Source of the DNA: a virus
Lineage: Duplodnaviria > Heunggongvirae > Uroviricota > Caudoviricetes
Length of the DNA: 64,000 nucleotides
Strand: one strand, 5' to 3'
IMG/VR virus record: IMGVR_UViG_3300046047_000272
Positions 54,001-57,000 of the stretch are shown here, one piece after another. A program made the position numbers. Within the stretch, counting starts at the first letter, position 1; each line of letters opens with the position of its first letter.

Positions 54001-57000
54001 GTCGTCACCAATCGTTCAAGATCCTCCCATGAGCCATCGTAATGGGAGAATCGGCTTTCCCTAGTCTGTCGTCTAACGAATGATCCACAAGCTATCTTCA
54101 TACTAATTCTCCTCGATCTTGCCTAGCCATGGTGTAAAGATGTTTTGATGAAGGATTATGTTCGTCAATCACGCCAATATCCTTCCAATAACGATCATAT
54201 TTACGTTTGAAATTCTTCCTGTTCTCATCGCGAATAGATGAGTTATACAATCCACATCGTAGACTGATGGCGTCATCAAGTGTGAAACTCCTTGGAAGAG
54301 CGTAGAAGATATATGGCAGCCAATTAAATTGATCACATAACCGATTCATCGTCATATCAATCATATCCCTATGATCAAAGGCTAAGGTATCTGGAAGATC
54401 GTTCATCGACACCCATTCTCCGTCAACGCCGTCATTGAGAGGACGATTTAATCCATCGGAAAGATAAATGACATGAAGAATACTGACAGTCTGCCCTCTC
54501 GGATCACGATTAAGACCAGTAAACGTCCTAATTTGTTGAACGCGATAGGCGTTATCTCGTTCAAGATCCTCAGCATTCTTAAAACAATATCCTATGGTTC
54601 GTTGAACAGCGATGAGGGCATTCTGCTCATTAGTATGGAGGAACGTTCCTGGAATGGCCAGTTCGTGAATGAAAGGATGCGTTTTCCTTCTGACGAGTAA
54701 AGCTTTCAACGAAAGATTAGCTTGATCGTGCTCATCGTAACTGACTATCAGACAATCAACCGTGACGTCTGGATGTGAATATGATTCGCGGCCAGCTGGC
54801 TCATCAGCTTCTCGCTGGTCTGGTTGCCTCGTCCACCAGGAGAGCCAATCCTGATATGACGCCTGAGATTCATACCATGTTTTCGTTCGTGCTTGATGTA
54901 CCATAATGACCTCCATTAACAGAGACTCCGTAGCCTCCGTGTCGCACAAATGTGATGGACAATACGATATATTGTATCATCATTCGATAGACGTAGCAAT
55001 AAGCGTGTTCTCATAATGATTGCCATATATCCTCATTCCATGATACAATGAGATTATAGATCATAAGCAAGCATTATGGAGGAATCATGGTTCAAAAGAA
55101 TCATCCATCAGAGGATACGGAAAAAGATCAGCATGTCACTGAACAAGTTGATGACGATGGTCACGAGCAAGTCGATCAGTCTTCACTGCTATCAAATGTC
55201 CTGCATCGTGTGAAGGATGGATGGGATGCATATACTGCTGATGTTCGTGTAGATGATGACGATGCGGCGACTCAGGACGCCGTAGTAGATCAGCATGAGA
55301 CGCCAATTAGCGTGTATCGAGGCTCGAAGAATGTTCTCCATCGTGGTAAGGATGTGATTGGATCGTTCGTCGATGGCGTTACTGGACGTCCGCACGTGAC
55401 CAAGACGCCCGCCGCATCACATGGCTGGATGACGGCTTTTCATACAGCCGTGTACATCTTCGCAGGTATTGGCCTTATCGCTATTGTCAGAGCGTCAATC
55501 GACGCTCTGAAGCCGAGAAGGTGACTATTGTCTTATGGAGATCATGAGTAGAAATCCATATCCAGCGAACGCCCTATCGAACTTTGCGCCTCACGCGTTC
55601 ATGATTGATGGTGTATCATGCGCTAGTATGGAAGGATTCCTGCAATCATTAAAATTCAGTAATCCCGAGATGCAAAAATATGTCTGCTCATTAATTGGTC
55701 GAGCGGCTAAAGACAAGGGATCAAAGAAAAATTGGAAAACTGATCAACGCTTGTACTGGATGGGCACATCCTATGATCGTTCTAGTCAAGAATATCTTGA
55801 CCTTGTTCATAGAGCATATCAGGAATTATCGAAGAATGATGGATTCAGACGAGCCATCATGGCGAGTCGATCGGCAACATACCAGCATTCCATGGGTAAG
55901 CGAAAACCCGCTGACACTGTGCTTACTCGACAAGAGTTCATTCATGAGCTACAAGAGGCGCGACGGCTTATCCTATCTGAGAAGGAGTAATAATGAGTAT
56001 AGAGTTTGGTAAGAGTAATGATCCTGATGGCGTTGGAGAAGCCGAGAAGTTCGTATTGACCATGCTGTCATATATTGGCATTGATCATAAGATGATCGCC
56101 AAGAAATTCCATATCTCCGAGGAAGCTGTCACTGATGCGAGACAGTGGATAGAAGAGCATCGACCAGACATGATTGCTGATATCACTAATACGCTTATAC
56201 CGGCTCTTCCTAATGACTTCACTCTAGAAAGAGACGCTGATGAACTTCTGAATGAGACCGCCGCATCAGTAGAGAAAGTCGAAGCAATGTTAGCGTCAAT
56301 ACGTCAGAGTCAACAGCGTCCGCACGATGATCCCAAGCCACTATCAGCTGAGGAAGAGTCAGTCTTCAAGGATCTCGCTGGACAGTTATCTGATCTTGAA
56401 ACAAGCTCTGTTAGTAAAGAGGCCCATTATCTTCAAGCAGCCTCTATTATCGATGTGGAGTGGGTATCTCGTCCTTCTCTTGGTGGTCATTTGTATGGTC
56501 AGAATGATATGGTCACGAAATTCCTACAAACCGTGAACGATGATATTGATCATGGTATGTACAAACTACGATCATCAAGAATGGCTTTAGCCGTATCGAC
56601 GACTATTGTGAATGGTGATCAGAGAAATGAATTAGAGCCAGCTGTCCTCATGTCTGCGCAGGCTCGTGCTGACTGGCTATTCCATGGGGGCGAATCACGT
56701 AAGACGACTAATGACGAGGATGAATCTATGAGAATCTGGTTGCAGGGATTGCAGCACCACGATCCAGAGGCCATGGCCTACGTATCAGCTATTCAGTTGC
56801 CTATCGGGTTGCATATTGATAATGATGGCGTCCTTGGCGTTGAGAAGAATATGGATACTGGTCAGGACGAATAACGTAACGGTATAATTCATTGTATGGT
56901 TACTAAGTCAAAGAAATACGAAGAGTTGTATAAGAAGTATCGGCCACGAACATGGTCTGATGTTATCGGACAGGATAGTCTTGTTACGAATCTATCTGAA

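What the first reader, a model, noticed from the sequence alone, without database searches (positions are those of the whole stretch)
54098..55990. NADAR plus Nudix-like pair, and a nearby ppGpp hydrolase: candidate anti-defence island
A NADAR/YbiA-family protein is known to remove ADP-ribose from guanine bases. It lies next to, and divergent from, a Nudix-fold gene that could be an ADP-ribose pyrophosphatase, and within a block of small unknown proteins (53283..56874). This suggests reversal of DarT-like DNA ADP-ribosylation or other NAD-based immunity.

A standalone RelA/SpoT-type small alarmone hydrolase at 43600..44061 could degrade (p)ppGpp or (p)ppApp produced by host toxSAS defences.
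Basis: partly seen in the sequence, partly recalled or inferred. Interest (0 to 1): 0.6.

Follow-up and report, generated by a model that had tools for sequence, protein, structure and literature searches.

The report
Phage anti-DarT NADAR beside NrtR-like regulator
A very large phage of a Gram-positive host carries a clear copy of the known anti-defence enzyme AdfN, which strips ADP-ribose off DNA, but the neighbouring "Nudix" gene is a catalytically dead NrtR-type regulator, not a second enzyme.

Summary
All the ORFs in the finding are real.

- **54098-54949 (-), "Nudix":** this is not a candidate ADP-ribose pyrophosphatase. It is an NrtR-family Nudix plus winged-helix transcription factor (clade profile vs EF2700/2FML, E=7.5e-48). 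Its Nudix box has lost the REx2EE residues, and so have all its relatives.
- **NrtR-like partner:** it is translationally coupled to DUF3228 (53538-54101). That pair recurs in related phages.
- **AdfN placement:** AdfN sits next to the NrtR-like gene only in this phage. A sister phage has a 45-nt gap at the same position, so AdfN is a lineage-specific insertion.
- **43600-44061 (HD gene):** an Aph1-type small alarmone hydrolase (7SMG, E=5e-24). [quoted passage not shown]

Overall this is a known anti-defence family in an uncultivated phage whose identical gene lies on a 491-kb contig. "Island" is too strong. The phage NrtR-like/DUF3228 pair is the only new element.

The parts
55535..55990 (+). 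AdfN-type NADAR (gp30.3 family), 151 aa. Predicted DNA guanine-ADP-ribose glycohydrolase.
54098..54904 (-). NrtR-family regulator (Nudix-like sensor domain plus winged helix), 268 aa from ATG 54904. The mechanical ORF extends to TTG 54949. The Nudix box is degenerate.
   Evidence: NCBIfam NF050029 NrtR, E=1.8e-14. PDB single sequence: 2FML/EF2700 1.6e-23, AraR 6e-13, soNrtR 2.5e-9. Clade profile: 2FML 7.5e-48, 3GZ5 1.8e-21, 5BS6 3.9e-20, all full length. REx2EE replaced in all 11 homologues. GGAGG ribosome-binding site before ATG 54904.
53538..54101 (-). DUF3228 protein, 187 aa. Translationally coupled to the NrtR-like gene by an ATGA overlap. Function unknown.
54905..55086 (.). Divergent control region. 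Leftward promoter: TTGCTA, 17 nt, TGATACAAT (54999-54971). Rightward promoter: TTGCCA, 18 nt, TGATACAAT (55020-55049). A palindrome ATACGATATATTGTAT (54962-54977) lies over the leftward -10. An inverted repeat TATATCCTCATT/AATGAGATTATA (55026-55058, inner 21 bp CTCATT-N9-AATGAG) lies over the rightward -10.
   Evidence: These are consensus matches and palindromes only. No operator motif is shared with relatives, and the NrtR core GT-N7-AC (PMC2330246) is absent.
55087..55524 (+). 145-aa protein with an acidic N-terminus and a hydrophobic C-terminal segment. First gene of the rightward operon. Unknown function.
   Evidence: No significant family hit. 42% identical to the equivalent gene in sister phage L003. 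Weaker homologues lie upstream of the NrtR-like gene in L006 and L011.
55993..56874 (+). 293-aa conserved unknown protein between AdfN and the clamp loader.
   Evidence: 32% identical to the 341-aa protein of L003 in the same position. No significant family hit.
53283..53555 (+). DUF2188-like small protein, convergent with DUF3228.
   Evidence: Pfam PF09954, E=7.5e-5. Its N-terminal C-x-A-x-DP-x-x-C-x-YH motif is shared with ORF 60406-61281.
43600..44061 (+). Aph1-like small alarmone hydrolase (HD domain), 153 aa. The start codon is uncertain (TTG 43600 or an internal ATG).
   Evidence: PDB 7SMG Aph1, E=5e-24 over the full length; Rel/SpoT hydrolase domains 5e-8 and weaker. TIGR00691, 1.3e-8. 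phrog_990, 1.9e-46. HD..ED, HxGQ..HP and KxxDxxxN motifs present. D30, R126 and Y141 align with Aph1 D24, R119 and Y134 (PMC10083569).
44103..45365 (+). Pnkp-like polynucleotide kinase plus calcineurin-type phosphoesterase, 420 aa, immediately downstream of the HD gene.
   Evidence: Pfam AAA_33 3.6e-12 and Metallophos 2.2e-11. phrog_8238, 2.3e-62. TIGR04075 bacterial Pnkp, 2.5e-7.

Best explanation
The locus holds three separate things, not one two-enzyme pathway.

(1) Gene 55535-55990 encodes an AdfN-type NADAR. By homology to T4 gp30.3 it cleaves the N-glycosidic bond between ADP-ribose and guanine in phage DNA. That undoes modification by DarT1-type host toxins so replication can continue. 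It is an accessory gene inserted into a conserved rightward operon (145-aa protein, then AdfN, then 293-aa protein, then clamp loader). It is presumably transcribed from the sigma-70-like promoter at 55020-55049.

(2) The divergent gene 54098-54904 encodes an NrtR-family transcription factor. Its Nudix domain has lost catalysis and serves as a ligand sensor; ADP-ribose is the family's usual ligand. Its C-terminal winged helix binds DNA. It is co-translated with a DUF3228 protein of unknown function. This pair, not NADAR plus Nudix, is the conserved unit in related phages.

(3) Gene 43600-44061 encodes an Aph1-type HD pyrophosphohydrolase. It most likely removes the 3'-pyrophosphate from (p)ppApp, either to blunt host alarmone-synthetase toxins or as immunity to a phage-borne one.

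Shown here: family membership, fold, conservation of catalytic or specificity residues, loss of the Nudix box, and synteny. Inferred: every biochemical activity, the ligand, the promoters, and the host (probably Bifidobacteriaceae).
For: AdfN:
- PF08010, E=3e-51.
- Alignment with T2 gp30.3 conserves E33 and K40 (T4 E36/K43), H118 and the C-terminal helix.
- T4 gp30.3 hydrolyses guanine-ADPr DNA and rescues phage from DarTG1 (PMC11825919, PMC11125620).

Insertion:
- Sister phage L003/L004, from the same sample, has NrtR-like, then the divergent 145-aa gene, then a 341-aa gene and the clamp loader. Only 45 nt lie where AdfN sits here.

NrtR-like:
- Full-length profile matches to EF2700, soNrtR and AraR; NCBIfam NrtR 1.8e-14.
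- REx2EE is lost in all 11 clade members.
- An aromatic residue (W39) occupies the position of EF2700 Y27, the ligand-contacting residue supplied by the other subunit of the dimer (PMC2330246).
- In that family a perturbed Nudix signature goes with no ADPR pyrophosphatase activity (PMC2330246).

Pairing with DUF3228:
- ATGA start/stop overlap.
- The same order occurs in L011/L012, L006 and L054.

Aph1-like:
- 7SMG, E=5e-24, with D24, R119 and Y134 equivalents conserved (PMC10083569).

Host context:
- DarTG is enriched in Actinobacteria, and a (p)ppGpp-synthetase-type defence (gp29-gp30) is detected only there (PMC10482375).
- The nearest bacterial NrtR-like homologues are in Bifidobacteriaceae.
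Against: - No activity was measured for any of these proteins.
- T4 AdfN works fully only in the T-even infection context (PMC11825919), so function in an unrelated phage is not guaranteed.
- The host is not known to carry a DarT1.
- The NrtR-like effector is unknown. Family members also sense arabinose or ribose-phosphate (AraR; PMC2330246).
- No canonical GT-N7-AC operator and no operator motif shared with relatives was found.
- The NCBIfam NrtR score (53.8 bits) is far below the equivalog cut-off of 400.
- The Aph1-like start codon is uncertain and lacks a clear ribosome-binding site.
Confidence: 0.75

Rival explanations
1. First reader's model. The NADAR releases ADP-ribose from DNA and the neighbouring Nudix protein is an active ADP-ribose pyrophosphatase that destroys it. 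Together they form a two-enzyme detoxification pair.
For: Both proteins belong to ADP-ribose-related superfamilies, and they are adjacent and divergent. The Nudix domain of the clade is distantly related to NadM ADPR pyrophosphatase domains (2QJO/2QJT, E about 1e-6).
Against: The catalytic REx2EE is replaced by QRTIGY and is lost in all clade members. A C-terminal NrtR winged helix is present. NrtRs with perturbed signatures lack ADPRase activity (PMC2330246). The adjacency is unique to this phage.
Confidence: 0.04
2. Sensor circuit. The NrtR-like protein represses both divergent promoters. It is released by ADP-ribose or a derivative produced when host NAD-consuming or ADP-ribosylating defences fire. 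This would switch on AdfN, DUF3228 and the downstream operon on demand.
For: NrtR proteins are ADPR-released repressors (PMC2330246). Streptomyces nrtR1 controls an ADP-ribosylhydrolase (draG) operon (PMC2330246). Nudix-HTH factors are predicted ADPr sensors of host ARG (ADP-ribosylglycohydrolase) systems (PMC9503650). Palindromes overlie both -10 boxes in the 182-nt divergent region. The ligand-contacting aromatic position is conserved.
Against: The two palindromes differ from each other and from the NrtR GT-N7-AC core. No motif is conserved in relatives. In most relatives the NrtR-like gene is not divergent from this operon, and AdfN is absent. The effector is untested.
Confidence: 0.2
3. 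Host-regulon hijack. The phage NrtR-like protein, derived from a Bifidobacteriaceae chromosomal regulator, binds host operators and reprogrammes host metabolism during infection. It would have no role at its own locus.
For: The closest cellular homologues (39-43% identity) are chromosomal genes of Bifidobacterium pongonis and Bifidobacteriaceae MAGs. Bifidobacterium NrtRs regulate nadABC, niaP and pncB (PMC2330246).
Against: The B. pongonis orthologue is not next to NAD genes; it is flanked by an ABC-F ATPase gene upstream and purA downstream. 43% identity does not guarantee the same operator. The conserved coupling to phage DUF3228 argues for a phage-internal role.
Confidence: 0.1
4. The NADAR has a different physiological substrate, and is not an anti-DarT factor. 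Candidates are ADP-ribosylated RNA or cytidine, soluble ADPr-derived immune signals, or by-products of RNA repair.
For: NADARs also reverse cytidine ADP-ribosylation (PMC12945103, title and abstract). They have been predicted to act on soluble ADPr derivatives and in RNA-repair contexts (PMC9503650). The window encodes extensive RNA-repair genes (HAD_SAK_2, Rnl1-like, Pnkp-like). NADARs active in vitro often fail to protect against DarT1 in vivo (PMC11125620).
Against: The closest characterised homologue (T4 gp30.3, same Pfam family, same catalytic triad) acts on guanine-ADPr DNA and counters DarTG1 (PMC11825919). AdfN here is not adjacent to the RNA-repair genes.
Confidence: 0.15
5. The HD protein is not a counter to host toxSAS alarmones. 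It could be the immunity partner of a phage-encoded (p)ppApp synthetase toxin elsewhere in the phage genome. Alternatively it could remove the 3'-pyrophosphate that CapRel/FaRel2-type toxins put on tRNA CCA ends, acting together with the adjacent Pnkp-like enzyme.
For: The founding Aph1 is an immunity protein encoded in a temperate phage next to a MuF-fused (p)ppApp synthetase (PMC10083569). toxSAS enzymes pyrophosphorylate tRNA 3' ends (PMC11245113 abstract). The HD gene lies 41 nt upstream of a Pnkp-like RNA end-healing enzyme. The phage carries tRNAs and RNA-repair genes.
Against: No RSH-type synthetase was found among the window ORFs that were scanned. Aph1 family members tested so far are nucleotide hydrolases (PMC10083569).
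Confidence: 0.2

Closest known systems
T4 gp30.3 / AdfN (anti-DarT factor NADAR), Pfam PF08010
   Same: Same Pfam family (E=3e-51) and same length. The catalytic Glu and Lys, the phage-type His in the last strand and the C-terminal helix are conserved. The NADAR fold is the same.
   Different: Only 38% identical to T2/T4 gp30.3 and up to about 64% to other family members. It lies in a phage unrelated to T4-like phages, with a pol III-type clamp loader at most 32% identical to any GenBank phage and Gram-positive host traits. The genomic position is different, upstream of the clamp loader rather than next to DNA ligase. T4 AdfN needs a T-even context for full activity (PMC11825919); whether this one has such a dependency is unknown.
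DarG1-type NADAR antitoxin (Geobacter lovleyi, PDB 8BAT) and YbiA (2B3W)
   Different: No cognate DarT gene nearby. His replaces Asp or Glu in the last strand. There is no N-terminal extension. Sequence similarity is at noise level (profile vs 2B3W, E=1.1).
NrtR family (E. faecalis EF2700/2FML; Shewanella NrtR 3GZ5; Bacteroides AraR 5BS6)
   Same: Two-domain Nudix plus winged-helix architecture over the full length, a degenerate Nudix signature, and the N-terminal extension carrying an aromatic residue at the ligand-contacting position.
   Different: Phage-encoded. Not linked to NAD or pentose genes; instead coupled to DUF3228. No GT-N7-AC operator recognisable. Effector unknown. Far below the NCBIfam equivalog cut-off.
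Streptomyces nrtR1-draG locus and Nudix-HTH-regulated ARG (ADP-ribosylglycohydrolase) systems
   Same: An NrtR-type sensor lies next to an ADP-ribosyl-removing hydrolase (PMC2330246, PMC9503650).
   Different: There the hydrolase is DraG/ARG and the linkage is conserved. Here the hydrolase is a NADAR and the linkage is seen in one phage only.
Aph1 (p)ppApp hydrolase, Bacteroides caccae (PDB 7SMG)
   Same: Full-length similarity (E=5e-24), a compact HD domain of about 150 aa, and conserved specificity residues (D24, R119, Y134 equivalents) (PMC10083569).
   Different: No adjacent (p)ppApp synthetase toxin. It sits next to a Pnkp-like RNA end-healing enzyme in a large phage with no integrase or repressor among the window ORFs scanned.

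Membership tests
Phage NADAR / AdfN (gp30.3, PF08010) | Significant match to the gp30.3 family profile over the full length | tested here: met
   PF08010, E=3e-51, residues 9-143 of 151. phrog_652, 1.7e-40. 2645 homologues at E<=1e-20.
Phage NADAR / AdfN (gp30.3, PF08010) | NADAR (YbiA) fold | tested here: met
Phage NADAR / AdfN (gp30.3, PF08010) | Catalytic Glu and Lys (T4 E36, K43) and the phage-type His in the last strand | tested here: met
   E33, K40 and H118 are invariant in alignments A1 and A4. Residue roles come from PMC11825919 and PMC11125620.
Phage NADAR / AdfN (gp30.3, PF08010) | Intact C-terminal helix (its truncation in RB69 reduces activity) | tested here: met
   Helix 132-150 is predicted, and the alignment runs to the end of T2 gp30.3.
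Phage NADAR / AdfN (gp30.3, PF08010) | Hydrolysis of guanine-ADP-ribose in DNA and rescue from DarTG1 | not testable with these tools
   Requires biochemistry and a phage infection assay.
[quoted passage not shown] | N-terminal Nudix-like domain plus C-terminal winged-helix DNA-binding domain | tested here: met
   Profile A2 vs PDB: 2FML 7.5e-48 (positions 8-257 vs 6-271), 3GZ5 1.8e-21, 5BS6 3.9e-20, all spanning both domains. Pfam NrtR_WHD is faint here (E=0.087) but on record for orthologue P0006.
[quoted passage not shown] | Perturbed Nudix signature (non-catalytic sensor), as in most NrtRs | tested here: met
   GX5EX7REUXEEXGU reads ..PGTFLHTNEQNALIAVQRTIGY... REx2EE is absent in all 11 clade members.
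[quoted passage not shown] | ADP-ribose as anti-repressor ligand | not testable with these tools
   Indirect evidence only: closest to EF2700, whose pocket conserves the NadM ADPR contacts (PMC2330246), and an aromatic residue (W39) sits at the EF2700 Y27 position.
[quoted passage not shown] | 21-bp palindromic operator with GT-N7-AC core upstream of regulated genes | tested here: inconclusive
   A 21-bp symmetric CTCATT-N9-AATGAG lies over the rightward -10 and a 16-bp palindrome over the leftward -10. The GT-N7-AC core is absent and no motif is shared with relatives.
[quoted passage not shown] | Linkage to NAD metabolism genes | tested here: not met
   No NAD biosynthesis or salvage gene was found among about 45 window ORFs scanned. 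The conserved neighbour is DUF3228. This feature defines the regulon, not the fold family. AraR-type members also lack it.
   Pfam NUDIX is below the gathering threshold (20.0 vs 21.1 bits).
Aph1-type (p)ppApp hydrolase (small alarmone hydrolase) | Compact RSH-type HD domain with HD..ED, HxGQ..HP and KxxDxxxN motifs | tested here: met
   7SMG, E=5e-24 over residues 8-148. Rel/SpoT hydrolase domains 5e-8 to 3e-3. Motifs read directly from the translation.
Aph1-type (p)ppApp hydrolase (small alarmone hydrolase) | Aph-specific residues that confer (p)ppApp over (p)ppGpp specificity (Aph1 D24, R119) and the C-terminal Tyr (Y134) | tested here: met
   D30, R126 and Y141 align to them in the phmmer alignment. 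Residue roles come from PMC10083569.
Aph1-type (p)ppApp hydrolase (small alarmone hydrolase) | Hydrolysis of (p)ppApp but not (p)ppGpp | not testable with these tools
   Requires an enzyme assay.
DUF3228 (PF11539) | Profile match and the fold of 2PD0 | tested here: met

The most novel reading that the evidence does not exclude
The NrtR-like protein would be a phage-encoded sensor of host immune activity. It would detect ADP-ribose or a related product of NAD-consuming or ADP-ribosylating defences. On detection it would de-repress counter-defence genes: AdfN in this phage, and the co-translated DUF3228 protein in the whole phage clade. That would make DUF3228 a new ADPr-related counter-defence effector.
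Probability: 0.15. Interest if true: 0.7.

Novelty: new member of a known kind. Interest (0 to 1): 0.33.

Why it matters
AdfN-type NADARs were described as largely confined to T4-like phages of Gram-negative hosts (PMC11825919). A well-conserved copy sits here in an uncultivated phage whose identical gene lies on a 491-kb contig. That phage has Gram-positive, probably Bifidobacteriaceae, host traits. This extends the family's host range. It also suggests guanine ADP-ribosylation of DNA is a relevant defence in gut Actinobacteria, where DarTG is enriched (PMC10482375).

The correction matters for annotation. Phage "Nudix hydrolases" of this clade are regulators, not enzymes.

The conserved phage NrtR-like/DUF3228 operon is, as far as the searched literature shows, undescribed. 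It gives a concrete handle on a widespread jumbo-phage domain of unknown function. None of this overturns current understanding.

Tried and rejected
- **DNA similarity:** megablast of 52000-58500 against GenBank phages found no match.
- **PADLOC:** models gave nothing meaningful for the eight proteins tested.
- **IMG/VR scans for the NrtR-like gene:** none confirmed with the single protein or with the alignment.
- **Sequence-only link of AdfN to solved NADARs:** not significant. phmmer found nothing, and the profile hit YbiA at E=1.1. Structure comparison was needed.
- **Shared operator upstream of NrtR-like genes:** five loci (window, L003, L005, L006, L008) each have palindromes, but no common motif and no GT-N7-AC core. 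The palindrome ATACGATATATTGTAT does not recur in the window beyond chance.
- **Recent transfer of AdfN:** its GC (0.441) and GC3 equal those of its neighbours.
- **Rfam:** only tRNAs, so there is no riboswitch or known RNA in the 692-nt gap before the HD gene.
- **Retrieval failures:** P0013 (87% identical AdfN) could not be located on a contig. The NrtR structure paper PMC2896262 is not held.
- **Uninformative call:** one search compared the protein with an alignment that contains it.
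Full report
**Observation**

- 55535-55990 (+, 151 aa)
- 54098-54949 (-, 283 aa as a mechanical ORF from a TTG)
- 43600-44061 (+, 153 aa)

Between and around them lie:
- a DUF2188-like ORF (53265/53283-53555, +)
- a DUF3228 ORF (53538-54101, -)
- a 145-aa ORF (55087-55524, +)
- a 293-aa ORF (55993-56874, +)
- a pol III gamma/tau-type clamp loader (56896-58080, +)

**What kind of genome this is**

The window is phage-like, and its features point to a Gram-positive host.
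- Host-type genes: a SpaA/LPXTG pilin and a sortase (39157-41443), a large SpaA/SdrD-type protein (281-3451) and a CHAP hydrolase (52295-53137).
- Phage-typical genes: an rIIA-like gene, class I ribonucleotide reductase with NrdI, an Rnl1-like RNA ligase, a TnpB, an IF3 and seven tRNAs.
- Proteins identical to the window's AdfN and DUF3228 lie on a JGI contig of 491,046 nt, so this is probably a megaphage.
- It has no DNA-level relative in GenBank phages. Its clamp loader is at most 32% identical to any deposited phage.
- The nearest cellular homologues of its NrtR-like gene are in Bifidobacterium pongonis (43%) and Bifidobacteriaceae MAGs (39%).
- Related phage contigs come from human-gut-type assemblies and range from 45% to 63% GC.

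The host assignment to Bifidobacteriaceae is an inference.

**The NADAR**

The 151-aa protein does not hit PF08719. It hits PF08010 (Phage_30_3) at E=3e-51, with a faint hit to the YbiA-type TIGR02464 (E=0.044). T4 gene 30.3 has been renamed adfN. Its product is a NADAR-fold DNA ADP-ribosylglycohydrolase that removes guanine-linked ADP-ribose and lets T-even phages escape DarTG1. E36 and K43 are catalytic, and loss of the C-terminal helix (as in RB69) reduces activity (PMC11825919). Phage gp30.3 NADARs carry a His in the last strand where YbiA has Glu and DarT-linked NADARs have Asp. T4 gp30.3 hydrolyses G-ADPr but not T-ADPr in vitro (PMC11125620).

In the window protein:
- E33 and K40 align with T4 E36 and K43, H118 is invariant, and the C-terminus is complete.

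Sequence alone could not make the link to solved NADARs. The family is large: 2645 proteins at E<=1e-20 and 1510 GenBank phage records, almost all T4-like phages of Gram-negatives and all annotated hypothetical. Membership is therefore secure. Activity is inferred.

**The "Nudix" gene**

Pfam NUDIX scores just below threshold (E=7e-4), and a faint NrtR winged-helix hit follows it. NCBIfam's NrtR model scores E=1.8e-14, far below its equivalog cut-off.

Against solved structures, the protein matches over both domains:
- E. faecalis EF2700 (2FML): 1.6e-23
- Bacteroides AraR (5BS6): 6e-13
- Shewanella NrtR (3GZ5): 2.5e-9

A profile of the 11-member clade raises these to 7.5e-48, 3.9e-20 and 1.8e-21. 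NadM-type ADPR pyrophosphatase domains reach only about 1e-6.

EF2700 keeps a canonical Nudix box (GFVNRNE-x7-RETKEETG). The phage protein reads TFLHTNE-x7-QRTIGY at the same place. All ten homologues likewise lack REx2EE. In the NrtR family, perturbed signatures go with absent ADPR pyrophosphatase activity and with a role as an ADPR-released repressor (PMC2330246). The N-terminal extension that in EF2700 supplies Y27 to the partner subunit's ligand pocket is conserved, with Trp at that position.

The real start is most likely ATG 54904. It has a GGAGG ribosome-binding site, and the resulting 268-aa protein equals database entry P0001. So this is a regulator, and very probably not an enzyme. 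Its ligand is untested.

**What is linked to what**

The NrtR-like stop overlaps the DUF3228 start (ATGA), which implies translational coupling. The NrtR-like to DUF3228 order recurs in L011/L012 (290-kb contig), in L054, and in L006, where a TnpB has been inserted between them. DUF3228 is absent in L005.

AdfN, by contrast, is next to an NrtR-like gene only in this phage. The sister phage L003/L004 comes from the same sequencing run. Its NrtR-like protein is 55% identical and its clamp loader 59%. It has the same divergent layout and the same 145-aa, 341-aa and clamp-loader series, but only 45 nt where AdfN sits here. AdfN is packed tightly, 10 nt after the upstream stop and 2 nt before the next start, and its GC equals that of its neighbours. 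AdfN is therefore an accessory gene dropped into a conserved operon. The NADAR-Nudix adjacency is not evidence of a functional pair.

**Control region**

The 182-nt divergent region contains two sigma-70-like promoters that share the extended -10 TGATACAAT. That 9-mer occurs 6 times in the window against 1.25 expected. A 16-bp palindrome overlies the leftward -10. A 12+9+12 inverted repeat, with an inner 21-bp symmetric CTCATT-N9-AATGAG, overlies the rightward -10. These positions suit a repressor. However, the sequences lack the NrtR GT-N7-AC core, differ from each other, and have no counterpart upstream of homologues. Regulation of AdfN by the NrtR-like protein is therefore a hypothesis; I put it at about 0.2. 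There is precedent for the logic in Streptomyces nrtR1-draG and in Nudix-HTH-controlled ARG (ADP-ribosylglycohydrolase) systems (PMC2330246, PMC9503650).

**DUF3228**

- The family has no known function, and no paper in the searched library mentions it.
- Homologues are frequent on contigs of 170-496 kb and usually lack an NrtR-like neighbour. Only one GenBank phage, Microcystis phage MaAM05, has one.
- Invariant R11, E81, E123 and N146 suggest a ligand or active site.

**The HD protein**

- It is a RelA/SpoT-type hydrolase domain (TIGR00691, 1.3e-8; phrog_990).
- Its best solved relative, over the full length, is Aph1 (7SMG, E=5e-24). Rel/SpoT hydrolase domains are at 5e-8 or weaker.
- Aph1 is (p)ppApp-specific. 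D24 and R119 confer that specificity, and Y134 contacts the pyrophosphate (PMC10083569). The window protein has D30, R126 and Y141 at those positions.
- (p)ppApp is therefore the more likely substrate.
- The gene lies 41 nt upstream of a Pnkp-like kinase-phosphoesterase. A role on 3'-pyrophosphorylated tRNA, or as immunity to a phage-borne synthetase, cannot be excluded.

**Is it an anti-defence island?**

Only loosely. Plausible counter-defence genes are spread over more than 50 kb, among replication, nucleotide-metabolism and membrane genes:
- AdfN
- the Aph1-like hydrolase
- Pnkp-like (44103-45365)
- HAD_SAK_2 (5952-6647)
- Rnl1-like (7157-8632)

The immediate block at 53.2-56.9 kb is mostly genes conserved in the sister phage, plus one inserted anti-defence gene. 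DarTG is enriched in Actinobacteria, and a (p)ppGpp-synthetase-type system is detected only there (PMC10482375). That makes both enzymes sensible for the presumed host.

**Verdict**

- The NADAR is a new member of a known, experimentally characterised anti-defence family, in an unusual phage and host setting.
- The Nudix gene is re-assigned from enzyme to NrtR-type regulator.
- The alarmone hydrolase is refined to the Aph1 type.
- The conserved phage NrtR-like/DUF3228 operon is the one new lead.

Noticed in passing
window 39157-41443 and 281-3451: The phage encodes a SpaA-type pilin with an LPXTG anchor, an adjacent sortase, and a 1056-aa SpaA/SdrD-domain protein. A pilus or adhesin cassette on a phage is unusual. 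It may alter the host cell surface.
   Followed up: no
window 58623-59219, 59274-60260, 61736-63931: A phage-encoded translation initiation factor IF3 is followed by an HD-domain protein. The sister phage has a full PolyA_pol/CCA-adding enzyme at that position. An array of 7 tRNAs (Pro x2, Asn, Lys x2, His, Leu) follows.
   Followed up: partly
window 5952-8632 and 44103-45365: There are two separate RNA-repair modules. One is a HAD_SAK_2 ('Swiss army knife' HAD) gene plus an Rnl1-type kinase-ligase. The other is a Pnkp-like kinase-phosphoesterase without a ligase domain. These are likely counters to anticodon nucleases.
   Followed up: no
window 3834-5294; L006 8205-9629: TnpB (Cas12f-like TNB domain) genes occur in this phage and in a relative. 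In L006 a TnpB is inserted exactly between the NrtR-like and DUF3228 genes, and the DUF3228 copy there is truncated to 116 aa.
   Followed up: partly
window 27376-28803 and 28800-29888: A type IA topoisomerase appears split into two overlapping ORFs: Toprim plus the first part of Topoisom_bac, then the end of Topoisom_bac plus C-terminal repeats. This could be a frameshift, a split gene or a sequencing error.
   Followed up: no
window 53283-53555 (+) and 60406-61281 (-): The DUF2188-like 90-aa protein and the N-terminus of a 291-aa protein share a C-x-A-x-DP-x-x-C-x-YH...P-T-x-x-x-A module (35% identity over 40 aa, E=2e-8 pairwise). This may be a small Cys/His domain duplicated in the phage.
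   Followed up: partly
window 42908-43599: A 692-nt stretch upstream of the Aph1-like gene has no ORF longer than 62 aa, a slightly raised GC (0.49), and no Rfam hit. Its content is unexplained.
   Followed up: partly
window 5340, 6645, 34351, 36360, 54979, 55041: The 9-mer TGATACAAT (an extended -10-like sequence) occurs 6 times against 1.25 expected, with no shuffle reaching 6. It may be a phage promoter element.
   Followed up: partly
window 15941-16564, 21657-22265, 22330-23652, 31290-32699, 46575-47156: A cluster of membrane-associated host-like functions: LemA, VKOR, TelA, an SPFH/flotillin-like protein and a TM2-domain protein.
   Followed up: no
window 41837-42907; L005, L006, L011, L054: An AAA/nSTAND3-like ATPase is conserved across the phage clade (40-43% identity). 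In the relatives it sits directly beside the NrtR-like/DUF3228 pair, followed by YkuD, rIIA and rIIB. In the window phage it lies about 11 kb away.
   Followed up: partly
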